DNA from: a virus
Virus record (IMG/VR): IMGVR_UViG_3300021091_005158
Span: 6,070 to 70,069 of that record
Reading direction: 5' to 3' (one strand)
DNA: 64,000 nt
Below the pieces are notes generated by a model, which was not told the origin of the DNA, ran no database searches, and saw only the letters and a list, made by a program, of their open reading frames with translations. The first letter of the stretch is position 1, and each line of letters starts with the position of its first letter. Shown here in pieces: positions 30,958 through 41,504 of this stretch. Made by a program: the position numbers and the translations under genes.

Positions 30958-31149
30958 TTGAAAAAGAAGTATAAAGAAGGTATACATTATTATACAGAAG
31001 GAGAAAGAGTCGTGTTTACGGCTCTTTTTCATTTACAGAGAGGTCAGTGTTGTGGATCTGGGTGCAGACATTGTCCCTATGAACCTAAGCATAAAAAAGG
31101 TGGTACTTTAGTAGAGAAAAATTTTGTTAAGACGAAAAAAAGTTCTTAA
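30958..31149 (+). CDS. Small Cys-rich protein with [11 protein letters not shown] motif
   Basis: 63 aa; probable metal-binding motif; immediately upstream of queD. Confidence 0.4.
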
Positions 31150-31169
31150 ATTATTATAAATAATCTATT

Positions 31170-31634
31170 ATGACTATATTCCAATCAACTAAGTTATTTG
31201 ACGGATATAGCTGCGTATTTCGTCAATGGAAAGCAGACGCGACCCATTGCCGCTTTTTGCATGGCTATGGAGTATCATTCAGAGTATGGTTTGAGGGTGA
31301 ACTAGATGAACGCAATTGGGTTTGGGATTTTGGAGGTATGAAGCGTGCTAAAGGTAATATTGATGGTATGAAGCCTAAAGAATGGATGGATTATATGTTT
31401 GATCATACAACTGTTATAGCTGAAGATGATCCATATCGTTCTTATTTTCATAATATGGATAAAGAGGGGATTATCCAACTAAGGATACTTCCAACAGTCG
31501 GCGCCGAACAGTTTGCGAAATTTATTTTCGAGAGGGTTAATAGATTTGTTCAAGAAGAATCTAGCGGTAGAGTTAGAGTAGTAAAAGTAGAATTTATGGA
31601 GAACAATAAAAATTCAGCATCTTATTTCGAATAA
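31170..31634 (+). CDS. queD: QueD/PTPS-family 6-carboxy-5,6,7,8-tetrahydropterin synthase-like
   Basis: Aligns to E. coli QueD around C-x3-HG(H): here CRFLHGYG ... WVWDFGGMKR ... MFDHTT. The second Zn-His is replaced by Tyr. Confidence 0.5.
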   Translation: MTIFQSTKLFDGYSCVFRQWKADATHCRFLHGYGVSFRVWFEGELDERNWVWDFGGMKRAKGNIDGMKPKEWMDYMFDHTTVIAEDDPYRSYFHNMDKEGIIQLRILPTVGAEQFAKFIFERVNRFVQEESSGRVRVVKVEFMENNKNSASYFE

Positions 31635-31643
31635 ACTAGCTAT

Positions 31644-31910
31644 ATGCCTATAAAAAAATCTAAAAAAGCCGAAGGTAAGGAACTTATGGTACAGCAACCT
31701 CCTCCGTGCAGTGAAGGAAATTTGGAAGAAGCTATGTTAGAAAATAACTGTTACTACTATAATGATATTAAGAATAAAGCTAATGTGCCTATCATGCGTA
31801 AGATAGTAGAGTGGGAAAAAAAATACAAAAATGCTTCTAGTAATATGGGAAAATGGTATTGTCAAATTATGATCAATAGATTAAAAATGAAACTACAATC
31901 TTATAAATAA
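31644..31910 (+). CDS. Hypothetical protein
   Basis: ORF only. Confidence 0.25.
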   Translation: MPIKKSKKAEGKELMVQQPPPCSEGNLEEAMLENNCYYYNDIKNKANVPIMRKIVEWEKKYKNASSNMGKWYCQIMINRLKMKLQSYK

Positions 31911-31914
31911 AAAA

Positions 31915-32265
31915 ATGTTTGAATCAGTTATACACTCCCTCGGTCTTTGCGGAGAACAGCATCCAACTATTTTAGGTATTTTTTTGGAATATCCGCAGAT
32001 TAATCATATATTTAATTATATTAAAACATGGAGGTTAAAACCTATGAAGTGCATTAAAAATATCAATACTGGTGATATCCAACGAGTAGACGATCGTCAA
32101 GCCGATGCTAAGGTCGGTAGTATTTGGAAGTTTATTCCTAAGTCTGAATGGAAAGCTGTTAGCCGTAAAACTGAAAAATATGAGGTAGAGATGGGAAAAA
32201 AAGGGCAGACTATTAGCGAGAAGGCTCTTAAGCGCAAAAAGCTTAAAGCGAAGCAACGTCAATAA
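31915..32265 (+). CDS. Hypothetical basic protein
   Basis: ORF only; Lys-rich C-terminus. Confidence 0.25.
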   Translation: MFESVIHSLGLCGEQHPTILGIFLEYPQINHIFNYIKTWRLKPMKCIKNINTGDIQRVDDRQADAKVGSIWKFIPKSEWKAVSRKTEKYEVEMGKKGQTISEKALKRKKLKAKQRQ

Positions 32266-39143: not shown

Positions 39144-39706
39144 TAAAAGTTCAAGAAAACTGGGGAATACTAATATCTCAGACCGGATCCGAGATTATTG
39201 CTATAGCTAAAGAAACCGGGTTTCTCCCTAGTCTCCTTGTTACTAATAGATTAAGTAAGATATCTGATGATAACCTGAGATTCTTTGGAGAAAATAGTGT
39301 AACAATAAAGACAATACCGTTTAAGCCTGTATTAAAAGATTATCTTTTTCCTGAACTACTTGAAAAAAAGCTAATTACTTTACATGGATTTTTGAGAATA
39401 TTACCTACTGGGTTTTTTAGTGAATACAAAGGCAAAATTTATAACGGTCATCCTGCACTCATTACTCGCTATCCTGAATTAAAAGGCTTTAATAAACAAG
39501 AAGATATTGTTAAAAATCATGAAAAGTACCCCGTTTGCGGCTCAGTAATTCACGAAGTAATTCCGGAATTAGATTCAGGGGAAGTTATAATAACAGCTAG
39601 TATCGAAAATACCGCAAAAACTGTAGACGAAGCATATTCTATTTTACGGACTACGTCTCTTCTTACTTGGGTAGAATTTTTTAAGAATACTTGGACCTTT
39701 CAGTAA
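39140..39706 (+). CDS. PurN/Fmt-type formyltransferase (candidate preQ1 N-formyltransferase)
   Basis: NGHPALITRYPELKG (N-x-H-P-[SA]-L-[LI] catalytic Asn/His) and HEVIPELDSGEVI (cf. GART HFVTEELDGGPVI catalytic Asp). Confidence 0.65.
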   Translation: MIKVQENWGILISQTGSEIIAIAKETGFLPSLLVTNRLSKISDDNLRFFGENSVTIKTIPFKPVLKDYLFPELLEKKLITLHGFLRILPTGFFSEYKGKIYNGHPALITRYPELKGFNKQEDIVKNHEKYPVCGSVIHEVIPELDSGEVIITASIENTAKTVDEAYSILRTTSLLTWVEFFKNTWTFQ

Positions 39707-39734
39707 ATATTCATATATTATATAAAATATTTAA

Positions 39735-40244
39735 ATGAAAATATTACTTGGATCTCACGGGACCGGAAAAACTACCTTACTTAAAGAGGTTGCTACTAAT
39801 TATCCCGGGTATTATGTTACTGATGGTTTCTCAAGACCTGTTATTAAGATAGGCAAGCAGCTGGAATTATCAGGTTATGAAAAGCAATACGTAATAAATG
39901 AACTATCTGCTTGGGCTTATCAAAATTACTTAACACATAAAAATGTAATTAGTACTCGAAGTATTGTTGATTGTATTATTTACTCCCAAATTTTAGCCCC
40001 TAATCTTGATATTGAAAACCTTATTACTCTATTTGAAGAAACTAAAGATCAAGTAGAACGTTTTTTTTATATACCTGTTGAGTTTGATTTTGAAGCCGAT
40101 CCTGATCGCTTAAGTCAAGAATTGCAATTAAAAATAGATCAAGTTATAAGAGAATTTATGATAAATTATATTCCTAAAGAAAAAGTAGTTATATTAAAAG
40201 GTACAGTAGAAGAACGTTTAAAATCGATATCCTTATATCTTTGA
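39735..40244 (+). CDS. P-loop NTPase (putative nucleotide/nucleoside kinase)
   Basis: Walker A GSHGTGKTTLLKEV at the N-terminus; small (169 aa) kinase-like size. Confidence 0.4.
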   Translation: MKILLGSHGTGKTTLLKEVATNYPGYYVTDGFSRPVIKIGKQLELSGYEKQYVINELSAWAYQNYLTHKNVISTRSIVDCIIYSQILAPNLDIENLITLFEETKDQVERFFYIPVEFDFEADPDRLSQELQLKIDQVIREFMINYIPKEKVVILKGTVEERLKSISLYL

Positions 40245-40247
40245 ATT

Positions 40248-40958
40248 ATGAGTAGAGATAAACATATTAAAATTGAAAAACTAGAGCTTGCACAAGCTGG
40301 CCATGCTAACGGTATTAGTACTTTTTTGCGAGACGCAATTAAAGAAGGAAGAAATTGTTTAACTGAAGGTGAAAAGAAGCTTATTATTGAAGCTGCTTCT
40401 TTACATTACGGCAATTTTCTAACTGCTTTAGGAGTTGACTGGGAAAACGACCCTAATAGCTCGAATACTCCTATGAGAGTGGCTAAGGCCTACGTAAACG
40501 ACTTATGGAAAGGTAGATATGAGCAGCTAGATTCTGTGACTAGCTTTCCGGCTGACGGTTATGACGGAGTAGTATTTGAAGGAGGTATCCCTATTACGAG
40601 TATGTGTAGTCACCATCATCAGACTATTAACGGCCTGTGTCATATCGCTTACGTGCCGACCCTTAAAAGTAGGGTAGTAGGTCTAAGTAAACTTAACCGA
40701 ATTGTAGAGCATTTTAGTAGAAGAGGTTCAATTCAAGAACAATTAACTGTAGCTATTCATAATGCTGTAGATAAAATTTGCGAAGATAATATTGGTGTTG
40801 CAGTAATGATTGAAGCAACTCATAACTGTGTAAGCTGTAGAGGTGTAAAGCATCAAGGTGCTAATATGAAGACCTCTAAGCTATCAGGATGCTTTTTAGT
40901 AGAAGATGCTGCACGAGCTGAATTTTATGAGTTTATTAAAGGTTACCCTAGGAAATAA
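40248..40958 (+). CDS. folE: GTP cyclohydrolase I (FolE)
   Basis: SMCSHHHQTING (cf. the CEHH zinc motif, Glu->Ser) and HNCVSCRGV (second zinc-Cys region); T-fold length plus an N-terminal extension. Confidence 0.65.
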   Translation: MSRDKHIKIEKLELAQAGHANGISTFLRDAIKEGRNCLTEGEKKLIIEAASLHYGNFLTALGVDWENDPNSSNTPMRVAKAYVNDLWKGRYEQLDSVTSFPADGYDGVVFEGGIPITSMCSHHHQTINGLCHIAYVPTLKSRVVGLSKLNRIVEHFSRRGSIQEQLTVAIHNAVDKICEDNIGVAVMIEATHNCVSCRGVKHQGANMKTSKLSGCFLVEDAARAEFYEFIKGYPRK

Positions 40959-40967
40959 TTTACAAAA

Positions 40968-41504
40968 ATGTTAAATGCACAACAAATCCTCGAAGAAGGA
41001 TTACTTAAGTTAGATAATACTAAAGGTAAAGTAGCTCAAGTTGGTTATGATATAACCCTTAAAGAGGTAAATAGAGTAGGTGATCCAAACGGAATCGACG
41101 AAAAACTTGTATATAGAAAATTCAAGATAGGTAAAGTTTTAAAGAATAAAACTGAATTAACTACTTATACTCCAGTTGAAACTATTCGTCTTGAAGAAGT
41201 TCAAGGATGGCTTTTGCATCCAGGTACATATGATATTGCATTTTGGGAAGGCTGTAGAATTCCAGATAATCGTGTAGCTTTTATTAAACAACGATCATCA
41301 TTATGGCGTAACGGTACTTTAATTAATTCGCCCGTATTTGATCCTGGTTTTGAGACTGAAAATATAGGAACAATTATGTTAGTAACTCAAACGATTTTTA
41401 TCGAAAAAGACGCTCGTGTAGCTCAAATATATTTTCACGAATGCACTCCAGCTGAAGAATATAACGGTCAGTGGCAAAACGATAAGCAGCGATCTTCCCT
41501 GTAA
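40968..41504 (+). CDS. dCTP deaminase/dUTPase-superfamily protein
   Basis: RSSLWRNG (motif III R-S-S-l-x-R-x-G) and VFDPGFETENIG (the DPGF-G uracil/cytosine pocket motif). Confidence 0.5.
   Translation: MLNAQQILEEGLLKLDNTKGKVAQVGYDITLKEVNRVGDPNGIDEKLVYRKFKIGKVLKNKTELTTYTPVETIRLEEVQGWLLHPGTYDIAFWEGCRIPDNRVAFIKQRSSLWRNGTLINSPVFDPGFETENIGTIMLVTQTIFIEKDARVAQIYFHECTPAEEYNGQWQNDKQRSSL

What the first reader, a model, noticed from the sequence alone, without database searches (positions are those of the whole stretch)
30958..41504. 7-deazaguanine DNA hypermodification cluster with QueF-like and PurN-type formyltransferase genes
Read directly in the translations: FolE, QueD-like, QueE-like, QueC (SGGMDSS), a TGT-fold DpdA-like protein, a QueF-signature protein (catalytic Cys + ESKSFKLYL), a GART-type formyltransferase (N-x-H...ELDSGEVI), a P-loop kinase and a dCTP-deaminase-like protein lie within about 10 kb. 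Established knowledge: FolE-QueD-QueE-QueC make preQ0, DpdA-family transglycosylases place it in DNA in exchange for guanine, and QueF reduces the nitrile to the aminomethyl (preQ1). A formyltransferase next to QueF predicts an N-formylated preQ1 base, a chemistry reported in only a handful of viruses and not yet tied genetically to a formyltransferase. The cluster also carries non-canonical partners (SPFH protein, Smr nuclease domain, SDR epimerase, [11 protein letters not shown] mini-protein) that the known pathway does not account for.
Basis: partly seen in the sequence, partly recalled or inferred. Interest (0 to 1): 0.8.

Follow-up and report, generated by a model that had tools for sequence, protein, structure and literature searches.

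The report
Phage formyl-preQ1 DNA modification gene cluster
This is a phage gene cluster for replacing guanine in the phage's own DNA with a formylated 7-deazaguanine, of the kind already described in Flavobacterium phage immuto in 2023, so it is a new example and not a new system; comparison with relatives shows a nucleotide-kinase-like gene always travelling with it that the published pathway does not explain.

Summary
Window 30958-41504 holds FolE, QueD, QueE, QueC, a DpdA-family transglycosylase, QueF, a PurN-fold formyltransferase, a P-loop kinase and a dCTP-deaminase/dUTPase-superfamily protein, all on the + strand. The transglycosylase is a DpdA3. [quoted passage not shown] That paper already proposed this gene-to-chemistry link, though DpdN remains unvalidated. 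The SPFH, SDR and Smr-like genes are sporadic inserts (0, 7 and 3 of 28 related loci) and not pathway partners. DUF5522 is conserved within this lineage only.

New here: the AAA_28 kinase is as conserved as the eight pathway genes (28/28). It lies within about 2 kb of DpdA3 in 8 of 14 divergent informative DpdA3 clusters, and also in immuto and Campylobacter phage CP220. Its model resembles thymidylate and nucleoside kinases. An NTP pyrophosphatase of varying family usually accompanies it. One DpdA3-DpdN fusion exists.

These facts allow, without proving, a nucleotide-pool route to complete G replacement. Verdict: new member of a known kind.

The parts
30958..31149 (+). DUF5522 mini-protein ([11 protein letters not shown] motif). 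A conserved accessory gene of this lineage, function unknown.
   Evidence: Pfam PF17653 at 8.6e-18. Present in 24/28 cluster-spanning relatives and usually ends 4 bp before QueD. Absent from immuto.
31170..31634 (+). QueD-like 6-carboxytetrahydropterin synthase
   Evidence: Pfam PTPS at 1.8e-14. 70% identical to immuto QueD. Present in 28/28 relatives.
31915..32265 (+). Conserved ORF of unknown function (116 aa)
   Evidence: No family hit. Present in 25/28 relatives.
32265..32810 (+). SPFH/Band-7 protein. A sporadic insert, not part of the pathway.
   Evidence: Pfam Band_7 at 8.9e-22. Present in 0/28 cluster-spanning relatives.
32807..33643 (+). QueE-like radical-SAM 7-carboxy-7-deazaguanine synthase
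   Evidence: PHROG 2076 'QueE-like radical SAM' at 1.3e-36 over the full length. QueE NCBIfam models from 7.7e-11 to 4.9e-6, all below equivalog cut-offs. Present in 28/28 relatives.
34399..34605 (+). Small LDLHG-motif protein, Smr-like at best. A sporadic insert.
   Evidence: Pfam Smr at E 0.016, 15.7 bits against a cut-off of 25.7. Present in 3/28 relatives.
35109..36056 (+). NAD-dependent sugar epimerase/dehydratase (SDR). An insert seen only in the closest relatives.
   Evidence: Pfam Epimerase at 5.5e-41. Present in 7/28 relatives and in L006-L008.
36570..37460 (+). QueC, 7-cyano-7-deazaguanine (preQ0) synthase
   Evidence: Pfam QueC at 3.5e-36. 63% identical to immuto QueC. Present in 28/28 relatives.
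37457..38236 (+). DpdA3-subfamily guanine transglycosylase (minimal TGT-fold TIM barrel, 259 aa)
   Evidence: tblastn against immuto DpdA3 gives 34% identity at 2e-32, against the CP220 group 33% at 2e-22, and against phiST 25% at 8e-5. The AF2 model has pLDDT 94.6. The top 7 Foldseek PDB hits are TGTs and bacterial DpdA 7ui4, at E 4e-8 to 3e-6. Invariant D53, F57, D84, Q115 and D203; Q115 and D203 align to DpdA His181 and Asp256.
38226..39143 (+). Bimodular QueF, the NADPH-dependent preQ0-to-preQ1 nitrile reductase
   Evidence: Pfam QueF_N at 6.6e-25 and QueF at 1.8e-9. Full-length match to V. cholerae QueF 3bp1 at 4.5e-33, with the ESKSFKLYLN motif and the catalytic Cys (SrCrhtkQkD vs SnClitnQpD) aligned.
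39140..39706 (+). DpdN-clade PurN-fold formyltransferase (predicted preQ1/dPreQ1 N-formyltransferase)
   Evidence: Pfam Formyl_trans_N at 1.3e-9. N102, H104 and D145 are invariant and align to PurN N106, H108 and D144. Among isolated phages the best hit is immuto DpdN YP_010114479.1, at 36% identity over 94% of the length. Scores 142 bits on an immuto-type DpdN HMM against 37 bits for PurN. Present in 28/28 relatives.
39735..40244 (+). AAA_28 P-loop kinase of nucleotide/nucleoside-kinase fold. A conserved, unexplained companion of DpdA3.
   Evidence: Pfam AAA_28 at 1.5e-9. The AF2 model has pLDDT 88. Foldseek top hits are thymidylate kinases, the NadR ribosylnicotinamide kinase domain and deoxynucleoside kinases. 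Homologous to immuto gp203 and CP220 gp057. Present in 28/28 relatives. Lies within about 2.1 kb of DpdA3 in 8 of 14 informative DpdA3 clusters.
40248..40958 (+). FolE, GTP cyclohydrolase I
   Evidence: Pfam GTP_cyclohydroI at 6.1e-44. 71% identical to immuto FolE. Present in 28/28 relatives.
40968..41504 (+). dCTP-deaminase/dUTPase-superfamily protein, predicted to be a dNTP pyrophosphatase and not a deaminase
   Evidence: Pfam DCD at 6.4e-15. NCBIfam archaeal-type dUTPase PRK02253 at 5.8e-24, 84.5 bits, below the 130-bit cut-off. Best PDB hit is 9w59 'probable dUTPase' at 1e-9. In the alignment to dCTP deaminase 4xjc, the RSSxxRxG and DPGF motifs are kept, but the Glu of the T-L-E-L stretch aligns to Thr. 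Reading that Glu as the catalytic deaminase residue is established knowledge, not a tool result. Present in 25/28 relatives.
25816..27672 (+). Class II (B12-dependent) ribonucleotide reductase. Upstream neighbour of the cluster, as in relatives; context only.
   Evidence: Pfam Ribonuc_red_lgC at 1.7e-12 and RNR-II_ins_dom at 3.1e-7. The RNR-DUF5522-QueD order is seen in L002-L004.
43184..45493 (+). Family A DNA polymerase. Downstream neighbour of the cluster, as in immuto and relatives; context only.
   Evidence: 55% identical to immuto PolA. Same position in L002, L004 and L006-L008.

Best explanation
The region is the DNA-modification module of a large uncultured phage distantly related to Flavobacterium phage vB_FspM_immuto.

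FolE, QueD, QueE and QueC convert GTP to preQ0, and QueF reduces preQ0 to preQ1. These steps follow from the established functions of those families. A DpdA3-subfamily TGT-fold transglycosylase puts the 7-deazaguanine in the place of guanine, and the DpdN formyltransferase adds a formyl group to the 7-aminomethyl nitrogen, presumably from 10-formyl-tetrahydrofolate. The phage DNA would then carry 2'-deoxy-7-(formylamino)methyl-7-deazaguanosine (fdPreQ1), probably at all or nearly all G positions. This protects it from restriction enzymes whose sites contain G.

What is shown here is gene identities, clade membership, catalytic residues and conserved synteny. What is inferred by homology to immuto is the product and its extent.

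The order of the formylation and insertion steps, and whether exchange happens on DNA (the published proposal, which I take as somewhat more likely, about 0.55) or on a nucleotide, is not settled by this evidence.

The AAA_28 kinase, and probably the dUTPase-superfamily protein, are conserved parts of the module with unassigned roles. SPFH, SDR and the Smr-like ORF are unrelated inserts.
For: - All nine named genes are confirmed by family, structure or homology searches.
- The only isolated phages with detectable DNA similarity are the immuto phages.
- Protein identities to immuto are QueD 70%, FolE 71%, QueC 63%, PolA 55%, DpdA3 34%, QueF 35% and DpdN 36%.
- Immuto DNA has fdPreQ1 in place of all G. 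Its YP_010114479.1 was named DpdN and its transglycosylase DpdA3 (PMC10516641).
- The window transglycosylase hits immuto, CP220-group and phiST DpdA3, folds as a TGT/DpdA barrel and keeps the active-site Asp positions.
- The window formyltransferase keeps the PurN N/H/D triad. It scores 142 bits on an HMM built only from immuto-type DpdN, against 37 bits for PurN.
- The gene set QueD, QueE, QueC, DpdA3, QueF, DpdN, kinase and FolE is present in 28/28 related loci. The order QueC-DpdA3-QueF-DpdN-kinase is the commonest.
- A 447-aa in-frame DpdA3-DpdN fusion exists (P0514). This independently ties the formyltransferase to the transglycosylase.
Against: - No chemistry was measured for this phage, and DpdN activity has never been demonstrated for any member (PMC10516641).
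- DpdA3, QueF and DpdN are only 34-36% identical to the immuto proteins, so substrate or product could differ.
- DpdA3 has not been reconstituted in E. coli (PMC10516641), so its substrate (DNA or something else) is unproven.
- The published pathway gives no role to the kinase, which is as conserved as the pathway genes.
- The fusion protein rests on a single 2-kb contig.
Confidence: 0.75

Rival explanations
1. Same enzymes and same final base, but the replacement is pre-replicative and takes place in the nucleotide pool. An NTP pyrophosphatase converts dGTP to dGMP and removes the competing dGTP. That enzyme is the dUTPase/DCD-superfamily protein here, and MazG, PRA-PH, canonical dUTPase or an HD protein in other lineages. 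DpdA3 swaps guanine for the 7-deazaguanine on the mononucleotide, DpdN formylates it, and the AAA_28 kinase re-phosphorylates the modified dNMP. The phage polymerase then incorporates the modified dNTP. The logic is that of T4 (dCTPase gp56, dCMP hydroxymethylase gp42, dNMP kinase gp1).
For: - The kinase is present in 28/28 relatives.
- It lies within about 2.1 kb of DpdA3 in 8 of 14 informative DpdA3 clusters defined at 60% identity, that is 55 of 61 informative loci.
- It sits next to DpdN or DpdA3 in immuto (gp203) and directly after DpdA3 in Campylobacter phage CP220 (gp057). In CP220 the HD/P-loop protein, DpdA3 and kinase form a small island among tail genes.
- L081 has a bona fide Thymidylate_kin ORF in the same position, a non-orthologous replacement.
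- The kinase is present in clusters making different end products, with or without QueF and DpdN. It therefore tracks DpdA3 and not the tailoring steps.
- Its model resembles thymidylate kinases, NadR ribosylnicotinamide kinase and deoxynucleoside kinases, not DNA-dependent ATPases.
- An NTP pyrophosphatase of varying family sits in the DpdA3 clusters examined: DCD-like, dUTPase, MazG, PRA-PH or HD.
- DpdA3 is a bare 259-aa barrel, against 361-413 aa for TGT and DpdA. It has no Zn motif and is acidic, with pI 4.9-6.1.
- DpdA3 phages show 100% replacement, whereas other DpdA subfamilies reach at most about 30%. DpdA3 alone did not work in E. coli, and free dADG nucleoside was reported in CP220-infected cells (PMC10516641).
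Against: - No TGT-fold enzyme is known to act on a mononucleotide (own knowledge).
- All characterised DpdA relatives act on DNA (PMC10164549, PMC10516641).
- The kinase family is not exclusive to DpdA3 phages. 89 of 114 phage records with it are Streptomyces phages, and no deazaguanine genes lie near it in Jay2Jay.
- The cluster sits in a nucleotide-metabolism and replication module (RNR, PolA). A dTMP-type kinase and a dUTPase could be ordinary dTTP-supply genes there.
- The five most distant DpdA3 clusters have no P-loop ORF nearby.
- Complete post-replicative modification is possible in principle, as with T4 hmC glucosylation (own knowledge).
Confidence: 0.3
2. Replacement is post-replicative on DNA, and the AAA_28 protein is an NTPase cofactor of DpdA3. 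This is functionally analogous to DpdB, the ATPase that bacterial DpdA needs in order to insert preQ0 into DNA.
For: - Bacterial DpdA is inactive without ATP hydrolysis by DpdB (PMC10164549).
- DpdA3 alone could not be reconstituted in E. coli (PMC10516641).
- The DpdA3-kinase linkage is tight across lineages.
Against: - DpdB is a ParB-fold protein. The window protein's structural neighbours are small-molecule nucleotide and nucleoside kinases.
- The invariant T-R-S...D stretch resembles the DR(Y/F) NMP-binding motif of thymidylate kinases. That comparison is by eye and from memory.
- No DNA-binding domain is evident in a 169-aa protein.
Confidence: 0.12
3. The formyltransferase, kinase and DCD-like genes are ordinary nucleotide-metabolism genes (purine synthesis PurN, dTMP kinase, dUTPase) that happen to lie among queuosine-precursor genes. 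Under this reading the phage DNA carries dPreQ1 or dPreQ0 without formylation.
For: - JGI annotators call the homologues PurN.
- The kinase family occurs in Streptomyces phages that have no deazaguanine genes nearby.
- dUTPases and kinases are common in phage replication modules.
Against: - The window protein scores 53 bits on NCBIfam PurN, against a cut-off of 150.
- It shares DpdN-specific motifs (SQTGSE, TLHG, YNGHP, YPELKG) with immuto DpdN that PurN lacks.
- It scores 142 bits on the immuto-type HMM, against 37 bits for PurN.
- No other purine-synthesis genes were seen in the cluster.
- It is present in 28/28 relatives between QueF and the kinase.
- Immuto, which has the same gene, carries fdPreQ1 and no dPreQ1 (PMC10516641).
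- A DpdA3-DpdN fusion exists.
Confidence: 0.07

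Closest known systems
[quoted passage not shown]
   Same: - Same gene complement, including the AAA_28 kinase next to DpdN.
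- Same DpdA subfamily and same DpdN clade.
- Same location next to a family A DNA polymerase followed by GroES/GroEL in relatives.
- High identity for QueD, FolE and QueC (63-71%).
   Different: - Gene order is rearranged. Here QueC-DpdA3-QueF-DpdN-kinase-FolE form one tight block. In immuto QueC lies 15 kb away and QueF follows the kinase.
- DpdA3, QueF and DpdN are only 34-36% identical.
- This lineage has DUF5522 and a DCD/dUTPase-superfamily gene. Immuto has a PRA-PH/MazG-like hydrolase and a small phosphoribosyltransferase instead.
- DNA-level similarity is limited to QueD.
- No chemistry is available for this phage.
Other DpdA3 phages: Campylobacter phage CP220 group (dADG, 100% of G) and Cellulophaga phage phiST (dDG, 100% of G)
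   Same: - DpdA3 homologue, 33% and 25% identical.
- A P-loop kinase directly beside DpdA3. In CP220 it is an AAA_28 homologue of the window kinase, 27% identical over the full length.
- An NTP phosphohydrolase in the same neighbourhood: HD in CP220 and MazG/dUTPase-like in phiST.
   Different: - According to PMC10516641, phiST lacks the full pathway and the Campylobacter phages stop synthesis at CDG. No QueF or DpdN was seen in the regions examined here.
- The end products differ.
- The phiST P-loop protein belongs to another family, AAA_18.
Bacterial Dpd system (DpdA/DpdB/DpdC) and phage DpdA1/DpdA2 systems
   Same: - TGT-fold transglycosylase with the same catalytic Asp pair. 7ui4 is a top structural match at E 5.5e-7.
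- The preQ0 pathway supplies the base.
   Different: - DpdA3 is about 150 residues shorter, and no Pfam TGT hit is found.
- There is no DpdB or DpdC.
- Replacement levels reported for those systems are at most about 30% of G, against 100% for DpdA3 phages (PMC10516641).
PurN (glycinamide ribonucleotide formyltransferase)
   Same: - Fold, the N-x-H...D catalytic triad and the folate-site motifs.
- By inference, the same formyl donor.
   Different: - Far below the PurN equivalog cut-off, at 53 bits against 150.
- The N-terminal acceptor-binding half is divergent. The Pfam match covers only residues 77-160.
- The genomic context is deazaguanine genes and not purine synthesis.
T4-type pre-replicative base replacement (dCTPase gp56, dCMP hydroxymethylase gp42, dNMP kinase gp1)
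   Same: The combination of an NTP pyrophosphatase, a base-altering enzyme and a nucleotide-kinase-like protein in one module, together with complete replacement of one base. This is an analogy from own knowledge and was not tested.
   Different: There is no evidence that DpdA3 acts on a nucleotide. The enzymes are unrelated in sequence to the T4 ones.

Membership tests
DpdA family, subfamily DpdA3 (PMC10516641) | Sequence homology to the founding DpdA3 members (phiST CGPG_00065, CP220-group proteins, immuto DpdA) | tested here: met
   tblastn gives immuto 34% at 2e-32, CP220 33% at 2e-22 and phiST 25% at 8e-5.
DpdA family, subfamily DpdA3 (PMC10516641) | TGT-type TIM-barrel fold | tested here: met
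   AF2 model with pLDDT 94.6 and pTM 0.91. Foldseek ranks 1-7 in the PDB are TGTs and bacterial DpdA 7ui4 (E 4.4e-8 to 3.4e-6). Generic TIM barrels start at 1.7e-4.
DpdA family, subfamily DpdA3 (PMC10516641) | Active-site aspartates (DpdA Asp95 general acid/base, Asp130 base recognition, Asp256 nucleophile) | tested here: met
   D53, D84 and D203 are invariant in 36 homologues. HMMER aligns D203 to DpdA Asp256 and Q115 to His181. The D53/F57 and D84 correspondences rest on motif spacing and are an inference. An intein in P0408 interrupts exactly the LDNS|xFELG motif.
DpdA family, subfamily DpdA3 (PMC10516641) | Guanine/7-deazaguanine exchange activity on DNA | not testable with these tools
   Needs enzymology. 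It has not been shown for any DpdA3 (PMC10516641).
DpdN (proposed preQ1/dPreQ1 formyltransferase, PMC10516641) | PF00551 fold with the PurN catalytic Asn/His/Asp | tested here: met
   Pfam at 1.3e-9. N102, H104 and D145 are invariant and aligned to PurN N106, H108 and D144.
DpdN (proposed preQ1/dPreQ1 formyltransferase, PMC10516641) | Clusters with YP_010114479.1 and not with PurN or the other phage formyltransferase groups | tested here: met
   The best hit among isolated phages is immuto DpdN at 36% over 94% of the length; the next best are 25-28%. The window protein scores 142 bits on an HMM of immuto-type sequences only. PurN scores 37 bits, and the PurN-like formyltransferases of L081 and L092 score 45 and 63 bits.
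DpdN (proposed preQ1/dPreQ1 formyltransferase, PMC10516641) | Co-encoded with DpdA and the full FolE-to-QueF pathway | tested here: met
   (28/28 relatives).
DpdN (proposed preQ1/dPreQ1 formyltransferase, PMC10516641) | Formylation of the 7-aminomethyl group, giving fdPreQ1 in virion DNA | not testable with these tools
   Needs LC-MS/MS and enzyme assays.
PurN (GAR formyltransferase, TIGR00639) | Score at or above the NCBIfam equivalog cut-off | tested here: not met
   53.3 bits against a cut-off of 150.1, and only residues 75-160 match.
Fmt (methionyl-tRNA formyltransferase) | Formyl_trans_N domain plus a C-terminal tRNA-binding domain | tested here: not met
   The protein is 188 aa with a single Formyl_trans_N hit. 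No Fmt model appears in the Pfam or NCBIfam output.
QueF, bimodular type (TIGR03138) | QueF_N and QueF domains, the QueF motif E(S/L)K(S/A)hK(L/Y)(Y/F/W), and the catalytic Cys | tested here: met
   Both Pfam domains score above their cut-offs. The motif ESKSFKLYL and the Cys align with V. cholerae QueF at 4.5e-33. The NCBIfam equivalog score of 175.7 is below the 293 cut-off, so this is a divergent member.
dCTP deaminase (Dcd) | Catalytic Glu of the deaminase site | tested here: not met
   In the alignment to dCTP deaminase 4xjc, the Glu of the T-L-E-L stretch aligns to Thr in the window protein. The TIGR02274 score of 44 is below the 92.8 cut-off. Identifying that Glu as the catalytic residue is from established knowledge.
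dUTPase of the Dcd-like (archaeal) type, PRK02253 | Score at or above the NCBIfam cut-off; dUTP specificity | tested here: inconclusive
   84.5 bits against a cut-off of 130. The best PDB hit is 9w59 'probable dUTPase' at 1e-9. Substrate specificity cannot be read from the sequence.
Smr domain | Pfam PF01713 at or above the gathering score | tested here: not met
   15.7 bits against 25.7, E 0.016. Only the N-terminal LDLHG part matches.
Thymidylate kinase / NMP-kinase-fold small-molecule kinases | P-loop NMP-kinase fold with a Walker A motif | tested here: met
   GSHGTGKTT is present. Pfam AAA_28 at 1.5e-9. Foldseek top hits are thymidylate kinases (1.3e-6), NadR RNK (TMq 0.71) and dNKs. Pfam Thymidylate_kin itself is not hit for the window protein, and there is no PDB match by sequence. 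The substrate is unknown.

The most novel reading that the evidence does not exclude
DpdA3-type systems, this cluster included, need two components that are missing from the published pathway. One is a nucleotide-kinase-fold AAA_28 protein. The other is an NTP pyrophosphatase of interchangeable family. On this reading they achieve complete G replacement before replication: dGTP is broken down to dGMP, the base is exchanged (and here formylated) at the nucleotide level by the minimal DpdA3 barrel, the product is re-phosphorylated, and the phage polymerase incorporates it. [quoted passage not shown] It would also make DpdA3 the first TGT-fold enzyme acting on a mononucleotide.
Probability: 0.3. 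Interest if true: 0.8.

Novelty: new member of a known kind. Interest (0 to 1): 0.42.

Why it matters
The cluster itself extends a system known from one cultured phage, immuto, and three uncultured genomes. In metagenomes the family is large: 373 DpdN clusters at 90% identity and about 4,900 DpdA3 representatives at 50% identity. Formyl-preQ1 DNA, or related fully substituted DNA, may therefore be common in environmental phages. That bears on restriction evasion and on sequencing and cloning of such DNA.

The more useful outcome is comparative. A nucleotide-kinase-like gene and an NTP pyrophosphatase travel with DpdA3 across deep lineages, and a DpdA3-DpdN fusion exists. This gives concrete candidates for why DpdA3 could not be reconstituted alone. 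It also turns the open question of how DpdA3 phages reach 100% replacement into a direct experiment: DpdA3 with and without the kinase and pyrophosphatase, on DNA versus nucleotide substrates.

Tried and rejected
- **DNA-level search of the whole region against phage genomes.** Only QueD matched, at 74% to immuto. Protein-level comparison was needed.
- **Pfam on QueE and DpdA.** No hits. These were resolved with PHROGs and NCBIfam and with homology plus a structure model.
- **Sequence search of the kinase against the PDB.** Nothing meaningful. The fold search was informative.
- **Possible DpdA3-NadR/kinase fusion in Bacillus phages, suggested by annotations under hits H35 and H38.** Rejected. 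BSTP12_038 is a 262-aa stand-alone DpdA3-like protein, and the 'NadR' label is an annotation artefact. The upstream 187-aa ORF has only a weak P-loop-type hit.
- **Whether the kinase family is exclusive to DpdA3 phages.** Rejected. 89 Streptomyces phage records carry it, and Jay2Jay has no deazaguanine genes nearby.
- **SPFH, SDR and Smr as pathway partners.** Rejected on conservation, at 0, 7 and 3 of 28 loci.
- **DCD-like protein as a true dCTP deaminase.** Rejected, because the residue aligned to the deaminase Glu is Thr.
- **Supplementary data of PMC10516641, to compare with the three uncultured DpdN sequences.** The files are not held. Cluster look-up gave no accession numbers.
- **Literature search for later work on DpdA3, fdPreQ1 or a pre-replicative deazaguanine route.** Nothing beyond the 2023 paper is in the held library.
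- **Search for the source of PDB 9w59.** Nothing found.

Full report
**1. The observation**

Window 30958-41504 is a run of + strand ORFs whose boundaries match the finding.
- DUF5522 (the [11 protein letters not shown] mini-protein), QueD/PTPS, SPFH, SDR epimerase, QueC, bimodular QueF and Formyl_trans_N.
- AAA_28 P-loop kinase, FolE and DCD-like.
- QueE has no Pfam hit. It matches PHROG 2076 'QueE-like radical SAM' over its full length at 1.3e-36, and several QueE NCBIfam models.
- QueF aligns end to end with Vibrio cholerae QueF (3bp1, 4.5e-33). The ESKSFKLYLN motif and the catalytic Cys are in register.
- The 68-aa 'Smr' ORF is the one weak call. Smr is its best Pfam hit, but at 15.7 bits against a gathering score of 25.7.

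From QueC to the DCD-like gene (36570-41504), seven genes overlap by 4-11 nt or are separated by 3-28 nt. They look like one transcription and translation unit.

**2. What it is related to**

The only isolated phages with any DNA similarity are the Flavobacterium phages vB_FspM_immuto, and only over QueD (74%). At protein level the immuto genome has counterparts of QueD (70%), FolE (71%), QueC (63%), PolA (55%), DpdA (34%), QueF (35%) and the formyltransferase (36%).

Immuto is the phage in which Cui, Hutinet et al. (NAR 2023, PMC10516641) found 2'-deoxy-7-(formylamino)methyl-7-deazaguanosine (fdPreQ1) replacing all dG. They classed its transglycosylase as DpdA3. They named its PF00551 protein YP_010114479.1 DpdN, a proposed preQ1 or dPreQ1 formyltransferase. 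It remains true that DpdN has not been tested biochemically. I found no later paper on DpdA3, DpdN or fdPreQ1 in the held library.

**3. The transglycosylase**

The 259-aa protein at 37457-38236 has no Pfam or NCBIfam hit. It does match immuto DpdA3 (2e-32), the Campylobacter CP220-group proteins (2e-22) and Cellulophaga phiST CGPG_00065 (8e-5). These are the founding DpdA3 members.

An AlphaFold2 model from 36 homologues is confident (pLDDT 94.6). Its seven best PDB matches are tRNA-guanine transglycosylases and the bacterial DNA preQ0 insertase DpdA (7ui4, E 5.5e-7). These are well separated from generic TIM barrels.

Invariant residues include D53, F57, D84, Q115-G116 and D203. A profile alignment places Q115 and D203 on DpdA His181 and the nucleophile Asp256. 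D53/F57 and D84 fit Asp95/Phe99 and Asp130 by spacing, which is an inference. In one metagenomic homologue a LAGLIDADG intein interrupts exactly the LDNS|xFELG motif (P0408). That fits a functionally critical site.

DpdA3 is roughly 100-150 residues shorter than TGT or DpdA, has no Cys cluster for zinc, and is acidic (pI 4.9-6.1 in seven lineages).

**4. The formyltransferase**

The 188-aa protein aligns to PurN enzymes, with N102, H104 and D145 on PurN N106, H108 and D144. These residues are invariant across DpdN-like sequences.
- It is not a PurN equivalog: 53 bits against a cut-off of 150.
- It has no Fmt C-terminal domain.
- It shares motifs with immuto DpdN that PurN lacks: SQTGSE, TLHG, YNGHP and YPELKG.
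- On an HMM built only from immuto-type sequences it scores 142 bits. E. coli PurN scores 37 bits.
- The more PurN-like formyltransferases of two distant clusters score 45-63 bits on the same HMM.

I therefore file it in the DpdN clade. The near-invariant G16-S17 corresponds to the PurN G11-S12 loop. From memory that loop binds the GAR phosphate, so this is a lead that the acceptor may carry a phosphate. It is not a test.

A 447-aa protein, P0514, is an in-frame DpdA3-DpdN fusion (the DpdN part scores 2.8e-51). It has an AAA_28 gene directly upstream, but it rests on a single 2-kb contig. If real, it independently links DpdN to DpdA3.

**5. Which neighbours belong**

The window's DpdN, kinase and DpdA3 each have hundreds of metagenomic relatives.

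Contigs of up to 190 kb show a conserved order. RNR class II, DUF5522, QueD, QueE and QueC come first. DpdA3, QueF, DpdN, AAA_28, FolE and DCD-like follow. PolA, HSP20, GroES and GroEL come last.

Conservation in the 28 loci that span the cluster:

| Genes | Loci (of 28) |
|---|---|
| QueD, QueE, QueC, DpdA3, QueF, DpdN, kinase, FolE | 28 each |
| DCD-like | 25 |
| orf116 | 25 |
| orf107 | 25 |
| DUF5522 | 24 |
| SDR | 7 |
| Smr-like | 3 |
| SPFH | 0 |

The SPFH, SDR and Smr-like genes are therefore sporadic inserts and not 'non-canonical partners'. DUF5522 is a conserved accessory of this lineage only, usually ending 4 bp before QueD and absent from immuto. Its role is unknown.

**6. The kinase and the pyrophosphatase**

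That paper never mentions a kinase, and it states that the phiST P-loop gene CGPG_00066 has no homologues in other deazaguanine phages.

The window kinase is homologous over its full length to two proteins:
- Immuto gp203, which sits between DpdN and QueF.
- CP220 gp057, which directly follows DpdA3. There an HD+P-loop protein, DpdA3 and the kinase form a small island among tail genes.

A survey of 78 IMG/VR DpdA3 loci, grouped into 15 clusters at 60% identity, gave these results:
- The AAA_28 kinase lies within about 2.1 kb of DpdA3 in 8 of 14 informative clusters, or 55 of 61 informative loci.
- A ninth cluster has a bona fide Thymidylate_kin ORF immediately upstream of DpdA3 instead.
- The five most distant clusters (26-28% identity) have no P-loop neighbour.
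- The kinase is present whether or not QueF or DpdN is, so it tracks DpdA3 and not the tailoring steps.

Its AF2 model (pLDDT 88) resembles thymidylate kinases, the NadR ribosylnicotinamide kinase domain and deoxynucleoside kinases.

The DpdA3 clusters I examined also carry an NTP phosphohydrolase of varying family:

| Lineage | Phosphohydrolase |
|---|---|
| This window | DCD/dUTPase-superfamily |
| L012, L013, L073, L074, L081 | canonical dUTPase |
| L014, L077, phiST | MazG |
| immuto | PRA-PH/MazG-like |
| CP220 | HD |

The window's DCD-like protein keeps the RSSxxRxG and DPGF motifs. It has Thr where dCTP deaminases have the catalytic Glu. It is more likely a dNTP pyrophosphatase than a deaminase, and its base specificity cannot be read from sequence.

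There is a counter-point. The kinase family is not exclusive to these phages. 89 of 114 phage records with it are Streptomyces phages, and Jay2Jay has no deazaguanine genes nearby. The whole module also lies among nucleotide-metabolism and replication genes, where a dTMP-type kinase and a dUTPase could be ordinary.

**7. Mechanism**

The best-supported account is the published one applied to this phage. GTP is converted to preQ0 by FolE, QueD, QueE and QueC, and to preQ1 by QueF. DpdA3 places the base in the position of guanine and DpdN formylates it, giving fdPreQ1 at most or all G positions and resistance to G-dependent restriction. I give this identity and product about 0.75.

Where the exchange happens is open:
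- About 0.55 on DNA after replication, as published and as shown for other DpdA relatives.
- About 0.30 on a nucleotide before replication. The pyrophosphatase would make dGMP and clear dGTP, and the kinase would re-phosphorylate the modified dNMP, by the logic of T4 gp56/gp42/gp1.
- About 0.12 for the kinase as an NTPase cofactor of DpdA3, analogous in role to DpdB. The structural neighbours argue against this.

These readings can be separated by experiment, as listed under next steps.

**8. Novelty and score**

The cluster is a new, divergent and rearranged member of a known kind. It is neither a new chemistry nor a new gene-chemistry link, and a specialist would recognise it at once.

Three things raise it above routine:
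- The family is large in metagenomes, with about 4,900 DpdA3 representatives at 50% identity and 373 DpdN clusters at 90% identity.
- DpdN and DpdA3 are still unvalidated.
- The conserved kinase and pyrophosphatase, together with the fusion, give a testable handle on how DpdA3 phages reach complete replacement.

Interest 0.42. The most novel reading not excluded is the nucleotide-pool route, with probability about 0.3 and interest 0.8 if true.

Noticed in passing
window 50851-51261 (+): A phage-encoded tmRNA gene. ARAGORN predicts the tag peptide AEEYAYAA. Rfam RF00023 scores 56.2 bits against a gathering score of 47, matching the full-length model.
   Followed up: partly
window 53168-53241 (+) and 53248-53322 (+): ARAGORN calls a tRNA with a 4-base anticodon (aaat) directly upstream of a tRNA-Met(cat). 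Rfam at gathering threshold confirms only the tRNA-Met, so the odd tRNA is unconfirmed.
   Followed up: partly
window 41989-42168 (+): A phage-encoded ribosomal protein bS21 homologue (Pfam Ribosomal_S21, 6.9e-13) lies between the modification cluster and PolA. It is also present in the closest relatives L006-L008.
   Followed up: no
window 22691-24088 (+): A single 465-aa ORF combines an N-terminal pyrimidine-dimer DNA glycosylase domain (Pyr_excise, 4.5e-13) with a 5'-3' exonuclease/FEN domain (2.7e-29). In relatives the corresponding gene is 334-345 aa and shows only the exonuclease domains.
   Followed up: no
L094 554-1897 (protein P0514; Logan SRR18398358): An in-frame DpdA3-DpdN fusion protein of 447 aa, with an AAA_28 kinase gene overlapping its start. 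It rests on a single 2-kb contig, so a frameshift or assembly artefact is not excluded.
   Followed up: partly
protein P0408 (616 aa): A DpdA3 homologue split by a LAGLIDADG intein. The intein is inserted inside the LDNS|xFELG motif that holds the putative general acid/base Asp.
   Followed up: partly
L092 5446-6858; L014 9604-11614: Distant DpdA3 clusters carry other tailoring genes. L092 has an Amidohydro_2 + Formyl_trans_N fusion (471 aa). L014 has MT-A70 methyltransferase, Amidohydro_2-like, Formyl_trans_N and AAA_28 genes in a row. These may make further preQ1 derivatives.
   Followed up: no
L012 10158-10859; L013 10164-10865: In ~80-kb phages with a PolIII-alpha replication module, the cluster FolE-DpdA3-QueF-kinase-X-dUTPase-QueC lacks DpdN. 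Between the kinase and the dUTPase it has a 233-aa CxxCxxCC-domain protein (Pfam 2.2e-6 in L013) of unknown role.
   Followed up: no
L015 (Streptomyces phage Jay2Jay) 6989-7618 and 88 other Streptomyces phage records: The same AAA_28 kinase family (about 30% identical to immuto gp203, annotated thymidylate kinase) is widespread in ~133-kb Streptomyces phages. In Jay2Jay no deazaguanine genes lie within 7 kb, and a MazG gene lies 5 kb upstream.
   Followed up: partly
window 27659-28258 (+), 28603-30942 (+), 55605-57050 (+): Two glycosyltransferase-like genes are present: a DXD-type at 1.7e-4 and a GT1 at 3.7e-11. A 779-aa protein made of degenerate SNF(I/L)GxxAG repeats with no family hit lies between the RNR and the modification cluster. 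Any link to the sporadic SDR epimerase gene was not examined.
   Followed up: no
L001 15919-16314 and 17358-17882 (immuto gp211, gp208): Inside its deazaguanine cluster immuto has a small phosphoribosyltransferase-domain protein (Pribosyltran, 1e-8) and a PRA-PH/MazG-like pyrophosphohydrolase (3.1e-10). Neither is assigned a role in the published pathway, and neither was found in the window.
   Followed up: partly
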